Source: an uncultured Candidatus Saccharibacteria bacterium
GTDB lineage: Bacteria > Patescibacteriota > Minisyncoccia > Phycocordibacterales > Phycocordibacteraceae
DNA: 64,000 bases
Direction: 5' to 3'
Assembly (NCBI GenBank): GCA_964652615.1
Contig: CAZZAT010000001.1
Coordinates: 87,081-151,080 of the forward strand
Part shown: positions 15,474 through 33,019 of the stretch, in pieces
Position numbering within the stretch: position 1 is the first letter of the stretch
Layout: each line of letters starts with the position of its first letter
Notes under the pieces: model-generated
Seen by the model: the letters and a program-made list of their open reading frames with translations, nothing else
Told to the model about the DNA's origin: nothing
Databases searched by the model: none
Program-made: the position numbers and the translations under genes

Positions 15474-17416
<1,943 letters not shown>

Positions 17417-17567
17417 GAGGTATGGAAGCTAGTGTATAAGGTGAGAACCATATAATGCAAAAACGGGCGCTCCTTTTCAAGAGCTTGCCTTTGTCGAAGG
17501 AAAATCCTACTTCACTACATAATGGATACTAGGCAGTATTTAATGTATTCGAATCTCCGAGTATATA

Positions 17568-17816
17568 TTGACAATAGATGAGATATATGGTATCTTTCGA
17601 ATCGAAAGGAGGTCCGCAATGGATCATTCTGAAACGTGGAAAGAAGTCGGCAAGTTCGTCTGGGGCTCCGTAGCCATCCTTGGCGTTGTAGGGGTGCTCG
17701 TTGGCCTGACGGCGTATGCTGGCGAAAAACTCGTCAGCGAACCAGCCGTCTGGGTCATTCTTGGCATTGCCACAACTGCCGTGGGTTGGCTTGGCGCGCT
17801 CCGGTGCAGCCGCTGA
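17568..17816 (+). CDS. Small hypothetical two-TM membrane protein (82 aa)
   Basis: ORF followed by a strong terminator AACGGGCGTCC-GTAGTTT-GGACGCCCGTT-TGCTTTT at 17831-17867. Confidence 0.4.
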   Translation: MTIDEIYGIFRIERRSAMDHSETWKEVGKFVWGSVAILGVVGVLVGLTAYAGEKLVSEPAVWVILGIATTAVGWLGALRCSR

Positions 17817-17830
17817 CTTCATCCACTATG

Positions 17831-17867
17831 AACGGGCGTCCGTAGTTTGGACGCCCGTTTGCTTTTA
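17831..17867 (+). terminator. Intrinsic terminator
   Basis: 11-bp GC-rich stem followed by TGCTTTT. Confidence 0.6.
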
Positions 17868-17878
17868 CCCACCTAAGC

Positions 17879-18130
17879 GTGGTATCCTCCCTCCTACAGA
17901 TGGAGACTCTCAAGGCAGTACTGCCGTATGCGCAGATTATCCTTTCCCTCCTCCTCATCCTCGGCATCGTGCTTCAAAGCCGCGGCGCATCTCTCGGAGG
18001 AGCTTTCGGAGGCGATAACTTCGCATCGACGTTTTACAAGCGCAGAGGCGCGGAGAAATTCCTTTTCCAAGCGACTATCGTCGTCGCTATTGCGTTCGTT
18101 GTATCTGCTGCACTTGGTTTCTTGATCTGA
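17879..18130 (+). CDS. secG: Preprotein translocase subunit SecG
   Basis: Two TM helices with the characteristic Gly-rich loop (LQSRGASLGGAFGGDNFASTFYKRRGAEKFL); 83 aa. Confidence 0.7.
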   Translation: MVSSLLQMETLKAVLPYAQIILSLLLILGIVLQSRGASLGGAFGGDNFASTFYKRRGAEKFLFQATIVVAIAFVVSAALGFLI

Positions 18131-18138
18131 TAACCACT

Positions 18139-19800
18139 ATGAGGCGTCTTAGCCTCCGTCCTCTCTACGAGCATATACGTTCACTTCATTCTGGCGACAA
18201 AGCAGTCGTCGCCGTTCTTGCATGCGTACTTTGCGCACTACTGCTTGCCGGACTCTACAGTTTCGAACGTCAATTTCTTGTCGAGATACCTTCACGCGGA
18301 GGTTCGCTTCTTGAGGGAGTAGCGGGAGCTCCTCGGTTTGTGAATCCTGTGCTTGCGCTCTCGGACGCAGATCGCGACCTTACGGCACTCACCTACGCTG
18401 GCCTTATGGGCTATGACAAGGAGGGAGCTTTGGTTCCGGTGCTTGCAGAGAGCTATGCGGTAAGCGAAGACGGGCTCGTCTATACCTTCGCGCTTCGCGA
18501 GCATGCACGCTATAGCGATGGTACGCCGGTAACCGCTGAAGATGTGGTGTTTACGGTCGAAAAGACGCAGGATCCTGACATTAAAAGTCCGCGCCTTTCA
18601 GACTTTGCAAACATTCGCGTCGAAGCGATTGATGCACGCACCGTGCGCTTTACCCTGCCTGCCCCCTATGCTCCCTTTCTCGTTGACGCAACGCTTGGCA
18701 TTTTACCTGCGCACGTGTGGCGCGATGTGAAGAACACCGAGTTTCCGTTTGCGCCAGAGATGATAGAGCCGGTAGGCGCAGGCCCGTTCAAGGTATCGCG
18801 CGTGGTGCGTGATAAAAGCGGAGCTGTTGAGCGCTATGAGCTAAAGGCCTTTGACGGCTACGCACTCTCGCGTCCGTATCTTGATGGCATTACCTTCGTC
18901 TACTTCAAAGACGAGGAGACGCTCCAGAGGGCGCTTATGCGCGGAAGCGTAGAGAGCGCGCATGGCGTTCCAAGCGAGAGCTTTGTGCGTGCCCCCTATT
19001 CACGCATCTTCGGCGCCTTCTTCAATCAAGGAAAGAACGGGGCGCTTGCACGCCCTTCGGTGCGTAAGGCGCTTTCAGTTGCTATTGATAGAGAGACACT
19101 CGTGCGCGATGCGCTTGCAGGCTTTGCCTTCCCTGCGTATGGGCCCGTACCGCCAGGCATTACCCATTCGCACTATGAAGAGCCAGCTGACCGGATAGCA
19201 GAAGCCAAAAGCATTCTTGAGCGCGACGGGTGGGAGTACAACGAGGAAGCAGGCGTATGGGAGCGCGAGGGCGCATCGCTTTCCTTCTCGCTCACTACCT
19301 CGAACGTTCCTGAATTGAAGGCAGTTGCAGAGCGCTTGCGGCTCGACTGGCAGACGCTTGGCGTGCCCGTTGCGCTCGATGTGTATGATCCAAACGCTCT
19401 TGTGCGAGACGCCATACGTCCGCGAAACTATGAGGCACTTCTCTTTGGCATGGTGGTTGGACGCGATAAGGACTTCTATGCGTTCTGGGACTCATCGCAG
19501 CGAAATGATCCAGGGTTAAACGTCTCCTTGTATACTAACCTCGCCGTTGATGAGCTCTTGGATGAACTTCGCCTTGAAACGGATGAAGCGCAACTTGAAG
19601 CCTCCTTGCACGAACTCAACGACCTCATCGCAAGCGATTACCCTGCAGTCTTCACGCATGCACCTGAATTCGTTTATTCCATTCCCGAAGACCTAAAAGG
19701 CATCGCCCTTGAAAGCATTACTGCCCCTTCAGATCGCTTTCTAAGCGCCGCCTTCTGGTACCGCCACACCGAGCATGTCTGGCCCGTGTTTGCACGATAG
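18139..19800 (+). CDS. ABC transporter substrate-binding protein, family 5 (peptide/nickel type)
   Basis: N-terminal TM/signal anchor and SBP_bac_5-like core (YTFALREHARYSDGTPVTAEDVVFTVEK...); 553 aa; no permease or ATPase genes adjacent. Confidence 0.65.
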   Translation: MRRLSLRPLYEHIRSLHSGDKAVVAVLACVLCALLLAGLYSFERQFLVEIPSRGGSLLEGVAGAPRFVNPVLALSDADRDLTALTYAGLMGYDKEGALVPVLAESYAVSEDGLVYTFALREHARYSDGTPVTAEDVVFTVEKTQDPDIKSPRLSDFANIRVEAIDARTVRFTLPAPYAPFLVDATLGILPAHVWRDVKNTEFPFAPEMIEPVGAGPFKVSRVVRDKSGAVERYELKAFDGYALSRPYLDGITFVYFKDEETLQRALMRGSVESAHGVPSESFVRAPYSRIFGAFFNQGKNGALARPSVRKALSVAIDRETLVRDALAGFAFPAYGPVPPGITHSHYEEPADRIAEAKSILERDGWEYNEEAGVWEREGASLSFSLTTSNVPELKAVAERLRLDWQTLGVPVALDVYDPNALVRDAIRPRNYEALLFGMVVGRDKDFYAFWDSSQRNDPGLNVSLYTNLAVDELLDELRLETDEAQLEASLHELNDLIASDYPAVFTHAPEFVYSIPEDLKGIALESITAPSDRFLSAAFWYRHTEHVWPVFAR

Positions 19801-19893
19801 AAGATAGTTAAGAGAACGGTATCCACACGAAGCTTTCTCTATCTGTCTTGTATAGTCTTACTAACTACTTACTCACTCTTATTTCAAACTATT

Positions 19894-21792
19894 ATGTCCC
19901 CAGCACCAGCTCCCGCACCCGCGCCAGGCGAACGTCCTAGCACTACCCCAAGAAGCGACCGTCCTTTCCCTCCTCGCGGCCAAGGGAATCGAGGAGATCG
20001 CCGTAGAGGCGGCAGAAACTCGCGCGATATGCGCCGCCCGATGCGCCGTGGAGGCGCTCCTCAAGGAAACGGTGCACCTGCACCAAAACGCACTGCCGAA
20101 TATATTCCTGCTCCTGTCGACGAGAAAACAGTCCGTGTCATCCCGCTTGGAGGCGTGGAGGAAGTCGGACGCAACATGTTTCTCGTTGAGACCGGCAATG
20201 ACATTTTTGTCTGCGATGCAGGCTTTCAGTTCGTATCCGAAGACTCAAACCCTGGCGTCGACTACATCCTTCCCAATACCAAATATCTTGAAGTGAACCA
20301 GCATCGCGTACGCGCGGTCATCATTACGCACGGACACTTGGACCACATCGGCGGCATCCCCTTTCTTATGGGCCGCTTCGGCAATCCCCCTATCTACACC
20401 CAGAATCTCACCGCCGTGATGATCCAAAAGCGCCAAGAAGAGTATCCGGATATGCCAAAGCTCGATGTGCGCGTGGTAGAGCCAGGATCAACGCATACCA
20501 TCGGCGATACCAAAGTGAAGTTCTTCCCCGTCACCCACTCTATTCCAGACTCTATGGGCGTTTCTATCATGACGCCGTGGGGCAATATCGTTGCAACCGG
20601 AGACTTGAAACTCGATCATGATGGTACCGTCCCAGCTGAACACGAGCAGAAGAAGTGGGGTGAAATAGGAAAAGACAATAACCTCCTCTTTATTGCCGAC
20701 TCAACAAACGCAGAGCGCGACGGCTTCTCGGTTCCTGAAAAGAAAGTGCATCAGACTTTGGAAGACATTATTAAAACTGTATCGGGCCGCCTCATCATCG
20801 GCACCTTTGCTTCCCAGTTCGAGCGCATGGTGCGCATCATCGAAGCATCTGAAAAGCTCGGCAAGAAAGTCGTGCTTGAGGGTCGTTCGATAAAGACAAA
20901 TCTTGAAATCGCACAGAAGACGGGTCTTTTGAACATCCAGAAAGACACCATCATTCCTGCACAGGAGGTTGGCGACTACCCGCCGGATAAAGTGGTTATT
21001 CTCGCTACCGGCGCACAGGGAGAGGAGTTTGCAGCCCTTATGCGTATCGCAACCAAGCAGCATAAGAGCATCACGATGAGCCCGCGCGATACCGTTGTCC
21101 TCTCTTCTTCAGTGATTCCTGGAAACGAAATAAGCGTGCAGCGTCTCAAAGACAATCTCTACCGCAACGGCGTTACCTTAATTCACTATCGCTCATCGGA
21201 TGTGCACTCGACCGGCCACGGCAACGCAGGAGAATTGGTGTGGATTAATCAGCAGGTAGGCGCGAAGTTCTTCATGCCTGCCTACGGCTACTATTCCATG
21301 ACCTCCTGCCACGCCAAAGCAGTTGAGCAAGCAGGGCGTCCGCGCGATCAGATAGTTATCGCGGACAACGGCACGGTCATCGATTTCATTGAAGGAAAGA
21401 CGATGCAGGTGCATAAAGACAAGGTGCCGTCTTCCCCGCTTATGGTGGATGGCTTTGCTATCGGCGATATGCAAGAAGTCGTGATACGCGACCGCCAAGC
21501 GCTCGCAAAGGACGGTATGTTCGTCATCATCGCAACCGTGCATTTGAAGACTGGAAAGTTGCGCAAGTCCCCTGACATCATCTCTCGTGGCTTTATTTAC
21601 CTTCGCGAGAGCCAAGATCTTCTAAACCAAGCGCGCGTTCTTATCAAAAAGACGGTTGAAGATTCGACGCAAGGCATGAACCCGGTCGACCTCGACTATG
21701 TGAAGAATCAGCTTACCGACACCATGGCGGGATACCTCTTCAGCAGGACAAATAAAGCGCCGATGGTGATACCGGTGCTAATTGGAGTCTAG
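19894..21792 (+). CDS. rnj: Ribonuclease J (metallo-beta-lactamase / beta-CASP RNase) with an N-terminal Pro/Arg/Gly-rich extension
   Basis: VRVIPLGGVEEVGRNMFLVE, the HGHLDHIGG metallo-beta-lactamase motif, beta-CASP and C-terminal domains; first ~75 aa are low complexity (MSPAPAPAPAPGERP...RGGRNSRDMRRPMRRGG). Confidence 0.9.
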   Translation: MSPAPAPAPAPGERPSTTPRSDRPFPPRGQGNRGDRRRGGRNSRDMRRPMRRGGAPQGNGAPAPKRTAEYIPAPVDEKTVRVIPLGGVEEVGRNMFLVETGNDIFVCDAGFQFVSEDSNPGVDYILPNTKYLEVNQHRVRAVIITHGHLDHIGGIPFLMGRFGNPPIYTQNLTAVMIQKRQEEYPDMPKLDVRVVEPGSTHTIGDTKVKFFPVTHSIPDSMGVSIMTPWGNIVATGDLKLDHDGTVPAEHEQKKWGEIGKDNNLLFIADSTNAERDGFSVPEKKVHQTLEDIIKTVSGRLIIGTFASQFERMVRIIEASEKLGKKVVLEGRSIKTNLEIAQKTGLLNIQKDTIIPAQEVGDYPPDKVVILATGAQGEEFAALMRIATKQHKSITMSPRDTVVLSSSVIPGNEISVQRLKDNLYRNGVTLIHYRSSDVHSTGHGNAGELVWINQQVGAKFFMPAYGYYSMTSCHAKAVEQAGRPRDQIVIADNGTVIDFIEGKTMQVHKDKVPSSPLMVDGFAIGDMQEVVIRDRQALAKDGMFVIIATVHLKTGKLRKSPDIISRGFIYLRESQDLLNQARVLIKKTVEDSTQGMNPVDLDYVKNQLTDTMAGYLFSRTNKAPMVIPVLIGV

Positions 21793-21877: not shown

Positions 21878-22075
21878 ATGGCTACAAGCAACGCAGAGCA
21901 AGTCTTCGAGGCAATCAAGGCTATGTCGTTGGCGGAGTTTACATCTCTGCTCGACCTCCAAGAAGACCTCGAGGACTCTGCAGATGCGGGCGAACCGGTG
22001 CATGTCATCGACTCGTTCGACGGGACCCAGTTCAGCATTGCTGATATCAAGGTTGAGCTGGTTCCTCATCCCTAA
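21878..22075 (+). CDS. Small acidic hypothetical protein (65 aa)
   Basis: Own promoter, strong Shine-Dalgarno and terminator; N-terminus (EQVFEAIKAMSLAEFTSLLDL) weakly resembles the L7/L12 N-terminal dimerisation helix, but the C-terminus is unrelated. Confidence 0.5.
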   Translation: MATSNAEQVFEAIKAMSLAEFTSLLDLQEDLEDSADAGEPVHVIDSFDGTQFSIADIKVELVPHP

Positions 22076-31662: not shown

Positions 31663-31694
31663 AAACCGGCCCTAGGGCCGGTTTTGTTTTTTAA
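31663..31694. terminator. Bidirectional intrinsic terminator
   Basis: AAAACCGGCCC-TAG-GGGCCGGTTTTGTTTTTT. Confidence 0.7.
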
Positions 31695-33019
31695 TGATAC
31701 CCGTCAACAAGGAAAGTCAGTGCTTGTCCGGACTTTCCGGCGCGCCCTGTTCTTCCGATGCGATGCGTATAGTCTTCATACGTTGCCGGCAAATCGAAGT
31801 TGATGACGTGCGAGACGCCTGAAATATCAAGGCCGCGAGCAGCAACATCAGTTGCAACCAATACGTTCGCATGATTTTGCTTGAAGAGACCGAGAGCTTT
31901 CTGGCGCTTGCCGTGCGTTTTATCGCCATGGATGGACTCTGCAAGAATGCCCATGCGGCGCAAGTCGCGCGTGAGACGCTCAACACCATGCTTGGTGCGT
32001 CCAAAGACCAAGGTTTTCTCAAAGTCAGGGCGCTTCAAGAGCTCAACCAGTTTGTCGAACTTCCCTTCAGGGGAGACACGCACAACGTCTTGATCGACAG
32101 TTGCTGCCGTATCGCGCGTCTTTACGTTCACCCTCACTGGATCTTTAAGGAAGTCATGTACGAGACGCTCGATATCGCGACCCATCGTTGCCGAGAAGAA
32201 GAGTGTGTGACGATCGGTACGCATCTTCGAAAGAATGAAGCGCATATCGTCGATGAAGCCCATATCAAGCATACGGTCTGCCTCGTCAAGAACAACCGTT
32301 GAGAACGATGAAAGATCGAGCTCGCGGCGCTCCATAAGGTCCTTGAGGCGCCCTGGGGTGCCGATAACAAATGCAGGAGCGCGGCGAAGGACGCGTATCT
32401 GACCTTCAATGCCAGCGCCTCCTACACACACAACCGCATTCATACCAAGGCGTTTTGCAAAGCCCCAGAACTCCTGCTCTATCTGTATCGCAAGCTCGCG
32501 AGTTGGCACCATGACAAGCACGCGCTCGGTTTCATTAAGAGCGCGAAGCTTTAGTACCTTGTCGATAAGCGGAATGAGAAACGATGCTGTCTTTCCCGTA
32601 CCTGTTGCTGCAAGTCCGACCACATCAAGTCCCTTCAAGACATGCGGAATCGACTTGTCCTGAATGGGCGTTGGGAGAACATACCCCTTTGACGCAATGT
32701 TTTCTTTGAGTAGTGCATCAATTGGAAAGTCTGCGAACTTATGTTCAGGTACAAACAGTGCCTCCGCTTCAAGCGGCTTTGCTTTGTTAATAAGTTTTGA
32801 GAGATCGACTGCCATTTCTTGGCGTCCGTTCCCTCGTCCGCCGCGGCGCTGGGGACGTCCGCCTTGATGGCGGCGCGGCCCATGCGCAGCAGGATCGCCT
32901 GCACGGCGCTTTCTGCCTCCTGAAGAAGGTTTTCCTCCCTTTCGCGCAAAGCGCGCGTATTCAGGACGGTCCGCAAGATCATTGCGGAAATTCTTTCGCA
33001 CTATATACGTTGTTGCCAT
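31691..33019 (-). CDS. DEAD-box ATP-dependent RNA helicase with an N-terminal Arg/Gly-rich extension
   Basis: Q motif (FADFPI...GYVLPTPIQ), motif I AATGTGKT, VLDEADRMLDMGF, SAT and HRIGRTGRAG; the first ~68 aa are RGG-like (GGRKRRAGDP...RRGGRGNGRQE); an internal Met (MAVDLSK, 32815) is an alternative start. Confidence 0.88.
   Translation of the reverse strand: MATTYIVRKNFRNDLADRPEYARFARKGGKPSSGGRKRRAGDPAAHGPRRHQGGRPQRRGGRGNGRQEMAVDLSKLINKAKPLEAEALFVPEHKFADFPIDALLKENIASKGYVLPTPIQDKSIPHVLKGLDVVGLAATGTGKTASFLIPLIDKVLKLRALNETERVLVMVPTRELAIQIEQEFWGFAKRLGMNAVVCVGGAGIEGQIRVLRRAPAFVIGTPGRLKDLMERRELDLSSFSTVVLDEADRMLDMGFIDDMRFILSKMRTDRHTLFFSATMGRDIERLVHDFLKDPVRVNVKTRDTAATVDQDVVRVSPEGKFDKLVELLKRPDFEKTLVFGRTKHGVERLTRDLRRMGILAESIHGDKTHGKRQKALGLFKQNHANVLVATDVAARGLDISGVSHVINFDLPATYEDYTHRIGRTGRAGKSGQALTFLVDGYH

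What the first reader, a model, noticed from the sequence alone, without database searches (positions are those of the whole stretch)
19894..20118. RNase J carries a ~75-aa N-terminal Pro/Arg/Gly-rich low-complexity tail
The conserved RNase J core begins around VRVIPLGG. It is preceded by MSPAPAPAPAPGERP...RGGRNSRDMRRPMRRGGAPQGNG, an RGG/RG-like disordered segment that resembles the RNA-binding and scaffold tails of RNase E and actinobacterial RNase J.

The DEAD-box helicase at 31691-33019 has a similar N-terminal RG-rich tail. Two degradosome-type enzymes with matching appendages suggests a shared interaction or condensate-forming module.
Basis: seen in the sequence. Interest (0 to 1): 0.55.

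Follow-up and report, generated by a model that had tools for sequence, protein, structure and literature searches.

The report
Conserved disordered basic tail on RNase J
The main RNA-degrading enzyme (RNase J) of this tiny uncultured bacterium, and a nearby RNA helicase, each carry a conserved, floppy, strongly positively charged N-terminal tail that most likely grips RNA. It is a new variant of a known theme, not a new kind of system.

Summary
ORF 19894-21792 (+) is RNase J, and its catalytic core starts at residue 80. The 79 residues before it are 20% Pro, 19% Arg and 13% Gly, with net charge +10.

The tail is translated from ATG 19894:
- About 100 of the 120 best homologues (Patescibacteria/Paceibacterota, 73-91% identical) carry a 72-115 aa tail.
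- It starts with a near-invariant M-x-x-APAPAPAP.
- That motif is encoded by 12 different, purely synonymous DNA sequences in 12 loci.
- Shorter database versions are gene-caller errors.

The tail has four parts: the (AP)4 cap, a hypervariable R/G/P linker, an Arg-rich motif (R-x-[IM]-RR-x-[LM]-RR), and a D/E-Y-x-P junction. The linker is 21% identical between homologues against 83% for the core, yet its charge stays at +10.9 ± 1.8. AlphaFold places the junction on the core and predicts residues 1-66 as disordered.

The DEAD-box helicase lies on the minus strand. Its tail has a parallel layout but no sequence homology to the RNase J tail.

Basic N-terminal extensions occur in 69 of 139 related RNase J clusters, although the literature calls this feature Helicobacter-specific.

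The most likely role is an RNA-tethering or assembly arm; this was not tested. Verdict: new variant of a known kind, with moderate interest.

The parts
19801..19893 (+). Intergenic leader upstream of the RNase J start: AT-rich (33% GC), G-poor, no Shine-Dalgarno, unstructured
   Evidence: Upstream in-frame stop at 19798. Intergenic GC is 0.33. The 40 nt before the ATG contain 1 G, and leaders are similarly G-poor in most related loci. RNA fold of -40..+60 gives MFE -7.6 kcal/mol, z +0.97. Only 4 of 35 genes in the window have an SD-like motif, so its absence here is normal for this genome.
19894..21792 (+). RNase J gene (632 aa plus stop), full length from the upstream ATG
   Evidence: Pfam hits: Lactamase_B, RNase_J_b_CASP (142 bits), RNase_J_C (82 bits). 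TIGR00649 scores 485.5 bits against a cutoff of 400. Catalytic residues H146, H148, D150 and H151 are invariant.
19894..19926 (+). Block I: N-terminal cap M-S-P-(AP)4 (residues 1-11)
   Evidence: APAPAPAP lies within the first 16 residues in 74 of 80 full-length homologues. A6, P7, A8 and P9 are invariant. In 12 of 12 loci the 24 nt encoding (AP)4 are different sequences and every difference is synonymous, with a mean of 5.3 pairwise differences. It is the only AP run in all six frames of the window.
19927..20013 (+). Hypervariable R/G/P-rich linker (residues 12-40), including the tri-RG motif RGQGNRGDRRRG
   Evidence: Linker columns are 21% identical to the window protein, against 83% for the core. 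Whole-tail length in homologues is 72-115 aa, yet R is 17 ± 2%, G 15 ± 4%, P 18 ± 3% and net charge +10.9 ± 1.8. Tri-RG motif. AlphaFold pLDDT is about 32 with no secondary structure.
20014..20049 (+). Block II: arginine-rich motif G-R-N-S-R-D-M-R-R-P-M-R-R (residues 41-52). M46 and M50 are the conserved hydrophobic positions, not start codons
   Evidence: The aligned motif is R-x-[IM]-R-R-x-[LM]-R-R, commonly RQIRRTLRRP. The strict pattern is found in 39 of 80 homologues. R52 is conserved in at least 90%. Most orthologues have I/L where the window has M46/M50, and 35 of 80 have no internal Met in the tail.
20050..20085 (+). Short G/A/P/Q spacer (residues 53-64)
   Evidence: Variable in the alignment. 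Low pLDDT.
20086..20130 (+). Block III: junction K-R-T-A-E-Y-I-P-A-P-V-D-E-K-T (residues 65-79), an ordered N-terminal addition to the core
   Evidence: [DEAS]-Y-[IFLYH]-P is present in 80 of 80 homologues. Y70 and P72 are invariant. AlphaFold pLDDT rises to a mean of 94 for residues 71-80.
20131..21789 (+). RNase J catalytic core, linker and C-terminal domain (residues 80-632)
   Evidence: HMM boundaries 80-630. All solved RNase J structures align from query residue 69-80 onward.
31691..33019 (-). DEAD-box RNA helicase gene (442 aa)
   Evidence: Pfam DEAD (residues 117-285) and Helicase_C (320-428). The best NCBIfam hit, CshA, scores 403.8 bits, below its 646 cutoff.
32942..33019 (-). Helicase N-terminal conserved motif MATTYIVRKNFRNDLADRPEYARFAR (residues 1-26)
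   Evidence: 62% mean identity across 67 homologues; M1, R8 and R12 are invariant; T3, T4, Y5 and I6 are conserved in at least 90%. pLDDT 44-54, so not an independent fold. Other sub-lineages use different N-terminal motifs.
32825..32941 (-). Helicase hypervariable R/G-rich stretch (residues 27-65)
   Evidence: 22% identity against 79% for the core. Length is 22-58 aa in homologues. Whole-tail net charge is +12.3 ± 2.4. pLDDT 41-44.
32744..32824 (-). Helicase junction motif (R)QEMAVDLSKLINKAKP... (residues 66-92) leading into the core
   Evidence: 65% identity. E68, M69, D72, S74, L76 and N78 are conserved in at least 90% and K79 is invariant. Short database calls of 368-374 aa start at this Met.

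Best explanation
**What is there (shown).** The 79 codons before the RNase J core are translated from ATG 19894. They encode a conserved N-terminal arm. Residues 1-66 are intrinsically disordered and polycationic, and residues 67-79 pack on the core.

The arm has a fixed layout:
- an (AP)4 cap at the very N-terminus;
- an R/G/P-rich linker that evolves fast while keeping its composition and net charge;
- an arginine-rich motif, R-x-[IM]-RR-x-[LM]-RR;
- a D/E-Y-x-P anchor.

**How it most likely works (inferred).**
- The arm is an auxiliary RNA-binding tether that raises the enzyme's affinity for RNA substrates.
- RNase J is a dimer or tetramer, so each particle would carry 2-4 arms. The DEAD-box helicase encoded about 10 kb away carries a compositionally matching arm.
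- Together the two enzymes could assemble on the same RNAs as a minimal, scaffold-free degradosome, possibly condensate-like.
- This would suit a lineage reported to retain RNase J, RNase III and PNPase as its core ribonucleases.
- The (AP)4 cap is probably a stiff polyproline-II-type, exopeptidase-resistant end, or a specific docking peptide.
For: **Translation from 19894**
- M-x-x-APAPAPAP is present in about 100 of the 120 best homologues.
- It is encoded by 12 different, all-synonymous sequences in 12 loci.
- Tail pN/pS is 0.33-0.37, against 0.08-0.11 for the core.
- 35 of 80 homologues have no internal Met.
- Two short database calls have the in-frame upstream cap.
- This genome rarely uses SD sequences anyway.

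**Disorder**
- pLDDT is about 32 for residues 1-66 with no secondary structure, and 94 for residues 71-80.
- The charge-hydropathy plot places the tail on the disordered side.

**Selection on physical properties rather than sequence**
- The linker is 21% identical, but net charge is +10.9 ± 1.8 and the R/G/P fractions are stable over lengths of 72-115 aa.

**Generality**
- 69 of 139 nearest RNase J cluster representatives have N-extensions of at least 50 aa. All 69 are net positive (median +14). They are R-rich or K-rich depending on lineage.

**Specificity within the window**
- Only RNase J and the helicase carry such a segment among 59 ORFs.

**Parallel helicase tail**
- About 91 aa, net charge +12.3 ± 2.4, disordered.

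**Precedent**
- The H. pylori RNase J N-terminal disordered region is important for activity.
- That enzyme forms a degradosome and foci with the DEAD-box helicase RhpA (PMC10700544, PMC7492731).
- CPR bacteria retain rnj, rnc and pnp (PMC12641178).
Against: - No direct evidence for RNA binding, for an RNase J-helicase interaction or for condensation.
- The tails are short (about 66 disordered residues) and almost lack aromatic residues, so phase separation without RNA is unlikely.
- Formal RGG motifs are not conserved: di-RGG occurs in 27 of 80 homologues and is absent from the window protein.
- The two tails share no sequence.
- Co-variation of their composition is weak and not corrected for phylogeny.
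- The strict conservation of (AP)4 and block II points to a specific partner rather than generic electrostatic RNA binding. A generic-tether model does not explain it.
- The absence of RNase E or RNase Y from this genome was not checked; only 64 kb was seen.
Confidence: 0.55

Rival explanations
1. The tail is mainly a specific protein-docking or regulatory element rather than a general RNA tether. The (AP)4 cap and the Arg-rich block II would be short linear motifs that recruit a defined partner (ribosome, PNPase, helicase core or another protein), or that fold back to autoinhibit or localise the enzyme. The R/G/P linker would be only a spacer.
For: - Near-invariance of (AP)4 at a fixed position, maintained by synonymous codon turnover.
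- Conserved block II with hydrophobic residues at i and i+4.
- The helicase also has a conserved, non-folding N-terminal motif.
- Tight conservation of net charge could reflect an acidic partner surface.
Against: - AlphaFold does not dock residues 1-66 onto the core.
- The (AP)4 cap stays invariant while the helicase N-terminal motif changes between sub-lineages. The helicase N-motif is therefore unlikely to be its co-evolving partner.
- Related RNase J lineages keep a basic tail but not these motifs. This argues that charge is the ancestral, general function.
Confidence: 0.25
2. The tail is a neutral low-complexity expansion (replication slippage or compositional drift) that is tolerated on an essential enzyme and has no function of its own.
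For: - The linker is hypervariable in sequence and length (21% identity, 72-115 aa).
- Composition of the extensions in other lineages differs between R-rich and K-rich.
Against: - Three conserved motifs.
- pN/pS is clearly below 1.
- Net charge is held at +10.9 ± 1.8 regardless of length.
- All 69 long extensions in related clusters are net positive.
- Only the two RNA-decay enzymes among 59 ORFs have such a segment.
- These are streamlined small genomes, where useless sequence is not expected to persist (established view of CPR genomes; PMC12641178).
Confidence: 0.08
3. The (AP)4 codons act during translation rather than in the mature protein. They could provide an unstructured, G-poor start region for SD-independent initiation, or form a nascent-peptide or proline-dependent pause that tunes RNase J synthesis.
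For: - The genome largely lacks SD sequences.
- The leader and start region are unstructured.
- Codon 4 is GCA in 11 of 12 loci.
Against: - All 24 nt vary synonymously, so the constraint is on the peptide and not the RNA.
- Low structure does not require a strict Ala-Pro alternation.
- Alternating X-Pro is not a strong known stalling motif (general knowledge, not tested).
- No other gene in the window uses this start.
Confidence: 0.05
4. The start is mis-assigned. Translation begins at M46 (20029) or M50 (20041), and 19894-20028 is untranslated leader.
For: - Public gene calls for the 100%-identical protein (P0001, 587 aa) and about 20 of the 120 homologues start at the internal Met.
- There is no SD before 19894.
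Against: - The upstream cap is conserved at the peptide level with synonymous turnover.
- Short calls have the in-frame upstream MxxAPAPAPAP.
- 35 of 80 homologues have no internal Met, and the Met positions are I/L in most.
- There is no SD before M46/M50 either, and SD is rare genome-wide.
- GC content jumps from 0.33 to coding-type values exactly at 19894.
Confidence: 0.02

Closest known systems
Helicobacter pylori RNase J N-terminal extension (about 132 aa disordered region) and the RNase J-RhpA minimal degradosome
   Same: - RNase J with a predicted disordered N-terminal extension placed before an otherwise canonical core.
- It partners with a DEAD-box helicase that also has a predicted disordered tail.
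- The extension is reported as important for activity and is proposed to drive foci or condensates (PMC10700544, PMC7492731).
   Different: - The origins look independent. The papers describe the extension as specific to Helicobacter. No homology test was run between it and the present tail, and its composition was not examined here.
- The present tail is shorter and R/G/P-rich. It has its own motifs: the (AP)4 cap, R-x-I-RR-x-L-RR and D/E-Y-x-P.
- Here the helicase tail is N-terminal, whereas RhpA's predicted disordered region is C-terminal.
- No experimental data exist for the present lineage.
RNase E C-terminal scaffold domain (arginine-rich RNA-binding segments AR-RBD/AR2; BR-body formation in Caulobacter)
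   Same: A disordered, arginine-rich, non-catalytic appendage on the main mRNA-decay nuclease. It evolves fast but keeps short conserved microdomains, binds RNA, recruits a DEAD-box helicase and can drive condensates (PMC11321048, PMC7613265, and general knowledge of E. coli RNase E).
   Different: - A different enzyme family: RNase E/G fold versus beta-CASP metallo-beta-lactamase.
- C-terminal and several hundred residues long, versus N-terminal and about 66 residues.
- No membrane-targeting helix or known partner microdomains were recognised here.
- No sequence homology.
Eukaryotic RGG/RG-motif tails of DEAD-box helicases (DDX4, LAF-1, Ded1/DDX3X)
   Same: N-terminal R/G-rich disordered tail on a DEAD-box core, involved in RNA binding, RNA selectivity and phase separation (PMC12394722 for DDX3X; otherwise general knowledge). 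The helicase here has its tail at the N-terminus, like these proteins and unlike the bacterial helicases with C-terminal extensions read about here (RhlE1/RhlE2 and CshA in PMC11260450; RhpA in PMC7492731).
   Different: - Bacterial and much shorter.
- Few aromatic residues.
- Formal di- or tri-RGG motifs occur in only a minority of homologues (17 and 6 of 68).
- Arginine methylation is not expected in bacteria.
- Convergent, not homologous.
Ala-Pro / X-Pro repeat rods (OmpA hinge APAPAPAP, TonB (EP)n(KP)n, myosin essential light chain (AP)n N-terminal extension)
   Same: Alternating X-Pro repeats form stiff, extended polyproline-II-like rods that work as spacers or reach-out arms. N-terminal X-Pro sequences also resist general aminopeptidases. 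(My own knowledge of these proteins; not tested here.)
   Different: - Here the repeat is only four units.
- It sits at the extreme N-terminus of a cytoplasmic nuclease.
- It is followed by a flexible polycation rather than a folded domain.
- No function is known for it.

Membership tests
RNase J (beta-CASP metallo-beta-lactamase ribonuclease, TIGR00649) | Full-length match to the RNase J family model above its curated cutoff | tested here: met
   TIGR00649 scores 485.5 bits against a cutoff of 400, over residues 80-629.
RNase J (beta-CASP metallo-beta-lactamase ribonuclease, TIGR00649) | Three-domain architecture: MBL domain with inserted beta-CASP domain, plus the RNase J C-terminal domain | tested here: met
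   PF00753 (residues 91-240), PF22505 (298-422, 142 bits) and PF17770 (530-631, 82 bits). The AlphaFold core is modelled confidently. The closest solved structure is B. subtilis RNase J1, 3zq4, at E 1e-132.
RNase J (beta-CASP metallo-beta-lactamase ribonuclease, TIGR00649) | Metal-binding HxHxDH motif intact | tested here: met
   T145-H146-G-H148-L-D150-H151 is invariant across 80 homologues.
RNase J1 equivalog (NF047419, Bacillus-type RnjA) | Score above the curated cutoff of 820 bits | tested here: not met
   554.6 bits, below 820. It is an RNase J family member but not a J1 equivalog.
DEAD-box RNA helicase | DEAD and Helicase_C domains with conserved motifs | tested here: met
   PF00270 at 153 bits and PF00271 at 108 bits. 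Invariant motifs include AxTGTGKT, PTRELA, DEAD, SAT and HRIGRTGR.
Degradosome helicase CshA equivalog (NF053631) | Score above the curated cutoff of 646 bits | tested here: not met
   403.8 bits, below 646. CshA is the best-scoring model, but the protein is not an equivalog. Calling it a 'degradosome helicase' is therefore an analogy.
RGG/RG-motif RNA-binding region (di-/tri-RGG or di-/tri-RG with 0-4 residue spacing; definition recalled from Thandapani et al. 2013) | At least di-RGG, or tri-RG, within the tail | tested here: inconclusive
   - The window RNase J tail has tri-RG (RGQGNRGDRRRG) but no di-RGG.
- Among 80 RNase J homologues: tri-RG 39, di-RGG 27, tri-RGG 8.
- The helicase tail in the window has only di-RG.
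- Among 68 helicase homologues: di-RGG 17.
- The motif class is therefore common but not conserved. Composition and charge are what is conserved.
Intrinsically disordered region | No stable fold predicted; low hydropathy and high net charge | tested here: met
   - RNase J residues 1-66 have pLDDT below 50 and no secondary structure.
- Helicase residues 1-90 have pLDDT 41-62.
- Both tails fall on the disordered side of the Uversky boundary.
- These are predictions only.
Helicobacter-type RNase J N-terminal extension | Sequence homology of the extension itself | not tested
Solved chain 8cgl aligns only from its residue 142. The papers describe the extension as Helicobacter-specific (PMC10700544).
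RNA degradosome / BR-body-type condensate | Physical association of nuclease and helicase; RNA-dependent phase separation | not testable with these tools
   Only indirect evidence is available. Both enzymes carry parallel tails and lie about 10 kb apart on the same contig in at least 11 genomes.

The most novel reading that the evidence does not exclude
In these ultra-small, scaffold-poor bacteria, the short polycationic N-terminal arms of RNase J and of the DEAD-box helicase would together form a minimal, RNA-bridged decay body that needs no RNase E or RNase Y scaffold. The invariant N-terminal (AP)4 peptide would be a previously unknown docking motif that recruits a specific partner, such as the ribosome, PNPase or the helicase core. 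More broadly, basic N-terminal arms would be a general but overlooked feature of RNase J in many uncultured lineages, not a Helicobacter peculiarity.
Probability: 0.2. Interest if true: 0.7.

Novelty: new variant of a known kind. Interest (0 to 1): 0.42.

Why it matters
- **Role of RNase J in CPR bacteria.** RNase J is one of the few ribonucleases kept by nearly all CPR/Patescibacteria, so how it finds and holds RNA is central to gene expression in a very large, uncultured part of bacterial diversity.
- **Scope of the feature.** The papers read here treat an N-terminal disordered arm on RNase J as a Helicobacter speciality. These data show positively charged N-terminal arms in half of the nearest RNase J clusters, and a precisely conserved motif layout in one Paceibacterota clade.
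- **Testable system.** This gives a compact setup for asking how short disordered arms substitute for large degradosome scaffolds: a 66-residue arm with three short motifs, plus a matching helicase arm.
- **Annotation error.** About one in six public gene calls for these enzymes starts at an internal Met and loses the tail.

Tried and rejected
1. **Internal start at M46/M50.** Rejected, for three reasons:
   - the upstream cap is conserved through synonymous codon turnover;
   - many orthologues have no internal Met;
   - the short database calls have the in-frame upstream cap.
2. **RNA-level element in the (AP)4 region.** Rejected. There is no significant structure and no nucleotide conservation. 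Tandem Repeats Finder reports only an 11-nt repeat in the leader.
3. **Homology between the RNase J and helicase tails.** None found.
4. **Search of one genome per species for other genes starting M-x-x-APAPAPAP.**
   - The six Patescibacteria-type hits were all RNase J, but the sampling is too thin to say the motif is exclusive.
5. **Taxon names for the diverse RNase J representatives.** The cluster look-up returned no organism names, so I cannot say which phyla carry the other basic extensions.
6. **Small acidic ORF downstream (21878-22075) as a partner of the basic tail.** It is conserved only in the two closest loci and absent in seven more distant ones, so it is not generally linked to the tail.
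7. **Co-variation of tail composition between RNase J and the helicase in 11 genome pairs.** Weak and not corrected for phylogeny: rho about 0.6 for Gly and Ser content, none for length or charge.
8. **Promoter scan of the upstream region.** No sigma-70 consensus match.
9. **Literature searches.** Searches for RNase J with Patescibacteria or CPR, and for Patescibacteria with disordered or arginine-rich, found no description of this tail.
Full report
**1. Observation**

The window holds an ORF at 19894-21792 (+) of 632 aa.
- Pfam finds Lactamase_B, the RNase J beta-CASP domain and the RNase J C-terminal domain.
- The NCBIfam RNase J family model TIGR00649 scores 485.5 bits (cutoff 400) over residues 80-629.

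Their composition is P 20%, R 19%, G 13% and A 11%, with net charge +10 against -4 for the core. They contain only four aliphatic or aromatic residues and fall on the disordered side of the charge-hydropathy boundary.

Among 59 large ORFs in the window, only this protein and the DEAD-box helicase contain a 40-aa stretch with R+G+P >= 0.45 (0.68 and 0.65). Every other ORF is <= 0.42.

The helicase gene lies at 31691-33019 but on the minus strand. Its DEAD core begins near residue 93.

**2. Is the tail translated?**

In-frame alternative starts exist at M46 (20029) and M50 (20041). The public gene call for the 100%-identical protein starts at M46 (P0001, 587 aa). Several results settle the matter in favour of ATG 19894.

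- About 100 of the 120 best homologues (73-91% identical; named by their sources as Paceibacterota, Parcubacteria, Minisyncoccia or Patescibacteria) carry a 72-115 aa extension that begins M-x-x-APAPAPAP.
- Two of the short calls (P0002, P0008) were checked in their DNA. Both have the in-frame upstream MSSAPAPAPAP or MTPAPAPAPAP.
- In 12 loci the 24 nt encoding (AP)4 are 12 different sequences. Every difference is synonymous, with a mean of 5.3 pairwise differences. Selection therefore acts on the peptide.
- Tail pN/pS is 0.33-0.37, against 0.08-0.11 for the core, in three pairwise comparisons. Synonymous sites are near saturation, so these values are rough.
- 35 of 80 full-length homologues have no Met inside the tail. 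M46 and M50 align with I/L positions of a conserved motif.
- The lack of a Shine-Dalgarno sequence is not an argument against this start. Only 4 of 35 genes in the window have one.
- The leader is G-poor and unstructured.
- GC content rises from 0.33 to coding-type values at 19894.

**3. Anatomy of the RNase J tail**

An alignment of 80 full-length proteins shows the following parts.

| Part | Residues | Conservation |
|---|---|---|
| Block I, M-x-x-(AP)4 | 1-11 | A6, P7, A8, P9 invariant; motif in 74/80 |
| Hypervariable R/G/P linker | 12-40 | 21% identity vs 83% for the core |
| Block II, R-x-[IM]-R-R-x-[LM]-R-R (here RDMRRPMRR, commonly RQIRRTLRRP) | 41-52 | strict pattern in 39/80; R52 in >= 90% |
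| Short spacer | 53-64 | variable |
| Block III, K-[KR]-x-x-[DE]-Y-[IFLY]-P | 65-79 | Y-x-P in 80/80 |

For the whole tail across the homologues, R is 17 ± 2%, G 15 ± 4%, P 18 ± 3% and net charge +10.9 ± 1.8.

AlphaFold2, run with this alignment, gives pLDDT of about 32 and no secondary structure for residues 1-66. It gives pLDDT 94 for residues 71-80. Block III is thus an ordered addition to the core, and residues 1-66 are a disordered arm.

By the formal RGG/RG definitions the window tail has a tri-RG motif but no di-RGG. Such motifs are frequent but not conserved among homologues.

**4. The helicase**

Its homologues show the same kind of layout:
- a conserved N-terminal motif, MATTYIVRKNxRNDLxDRPxYxxFA (62% identity);
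- a hypervariable R/G(/S) stretch (22% identity, 22-58 aa);
- a conserved junction, (R)QEMAVDLSKLINKAKP (65% identity).

Tail length is 91 ± 8 aa and net charge +12.3 ± 2.4. AlphaFold predicts residues 1-90 at low confidence.

The two tails share no sequence similarity (E = 0.23).

The RNase J cap stays invariant while the helicase N-motif differs between sub-lineages. That helicase motif is therefore not an obvious co-evolving partner of (AP)4.

In 11 genome pairs, Gly and Ser content of the two tails correlate weakly (rho about 0.6, p about 0.05, not corrected for phylogeny). Length and charge do not correlate.

**5. Wider distribution**

I searched 1.84 billion cluster representatives with the full protein.
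- Of 139 nearest representatives with an intact N-terminal boundary, 69 have N-extensions of at least 50 aa.
- All 69 are net positive (median +14, median length 113 aa). Thirty are R-dominated and 38 K-dominated.
- The frequency is highest among the closest relatives: 22 of the nearest 25.
- None of these representatives has the (AP)4 cap.

The cap is found down to about 74% core identity and is absent from the 61%-identical P0241.

So a basic N-terminal arm is a widespread property of related RNase J proteins, while the motif set described here marks one clade. I could not attach taxon names to the other representatives.

**6. Comparison with what is known**

- No solved RNase J structure covers the tail. 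The chains align from query residue 69-80.
- The solved chains begin 2-25 residues before the core. The exception is H. pylori 8cgl, whose core starts at its residue 142.
- The H. pylori papers describe a 100-136 residue disordered N-terminal extension as specific to Helicobacter. They report that it is important for activity and may be linked to degradosome foci formed with the DEAD-box helicase RhpA.
- CPR bacteria are reported to retain rnj, rnc and pnp in at least 90% of genomes.
- Searches of the paper library found nothing on RNase J tails in Patescibacteria or CPR.
- The bacterial DEAD-box helicases covered in the papers I read carry C-terminal disordered extensions. The N-terminal position here resembles eukaryotic DDX3X/DDX4-type helicases by convergence.

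**7. Interpretation**

*Shown:*
- The arm is translated, conserved and predicted to be disordered.
- It is polycationic and has three conserved short motifs.
- A parallel arm sits on the helicase.
- Basic arms occur in many related RNase J clusters.

*Inferred:*
- The arm tethers RNA. Block II resembles arginine-rich RNA-binding peptides, and charge is the conserved quantity.
- With 2-4 arms per RNase J oligomer plus the helicase arm, it could allow RNA-bridged co-assembly that substitutes for an RNase E or RNase Y scaffold.

*Unexplained:*
- Why (AP)4 is invariant. A stiff, exopeptidase-resistant cap or a specific docking peptide are the leading ideas.

The rivals are a specific docking or regulatory tail, a neutral expansion, a translational role and a mis-assigned start. 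They are weighed in their own sections of this report.

**8. Verdict**

The finding is a new variant of a known kind: a disordered basic appendage on a decay nuclease, closest to H. pylori RNase J. It is of moderate interest. Its value lies in the clean motif architecture, in the apparent generality of basic N-terminal arms on RNase J, and in correcting mis-called starts.

Noticed in passing
window 21878-22075 (+): A 65-aa, strongly acidic ORF (net charge about -12, by eye) starts 85 nt after the RNase J stop and has no Pfam hit. A 65-aa gene is called at the same place in the two closest loci (L001, L002). No counterpart is found in seven more distant loci, so it is not generally linked to the basic tail.
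   Followed up: partly
window, gene starts throughout (e.g. 29894 +, 35701 -, 37129 -, 44242 -): Only 4 of 35 long ORFs have a Shine-Dalgarno-like motif at -18..-6. Many starts have a TATA(G/C/A)T-like -10 box within about 10-20 nt of the ATG. This suggests widespread leaderless or very short-leader mRNAs in this organism.
   Followed up: no
public database proteins P0001-P0004, P0008, P0018, P0020, P0033, P0041, P0042, P0048, P0102, P0118 (RNase J); P0154, P0157, P0160, P0174, P0180, P0218, P0224, P0226, P0232 (helicase): Roughly one in six public gene calls for these RNase J proteins starts at an internal Met and loses the N-terminal tail; for the helicases it is about one in thirteen (9 of 120). 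For RNase J the internal Met lies in block II; for the helicase it is the Met of QEMAVDL. This includes the call that is 100% identical to the window's RNase J. Two RNase J cases were verified in DNA; the helicase cases were not.
   Followed up: partly
representatives P0271, P0279, P0309, P0324, P0356, P0358, P0363: A different group of RNase J proteins has K/N-rich N-terminal extensions. These begin with a recurring M-x-x-L-x-K-W-L-x-K motif, possibly an amphipathic helix. It would be a second, unrelated conserved cap on a basic RNase J arm.
   Followed up: no
representative P0326: This RNase J has a roughly 190-aa N-terminal extension with a duplicated segment containing KRRGRPPKNR, which looks like an AT-hook (a short DNA-binding motif). 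The taxon is unknown.
   Followed up: no
window 19856-19881 (+) and L017 leader: The RNase J leader contains a 2.5-copy, roughly 11-nt repeat (TCTTACTAAC). A near-identical CTTACTAACTACTTACTC string occurs in the leader of the distant locus L017. It may be a conserved leader element.
   Followed up: no
window 15474-21792 and loci L001, L002, L123-L125: The gene order SecG, then an SBP_bac_5 solute-binding protein, then RNase J is conserved across the five related loci examined. GroES/GroEL lie upstream in L001 and L123. In the window the SBP-type ORF at 18139-19800 and a chaperonin-like ORF at 15474-17102 sit upstream of RNase J, but these were not domain-checked. The helicase lies about 10 kb away on the same contig in many genomes, judged from matching contig lengths.
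   Followed up: partly
window 20070-20093 (-): Two overlapping terminator-like hairpins lie on the minus strand inside the tail-coding region. They are most likely chance matches in GC-rich, low-complexity sequence.
   Followed up: no
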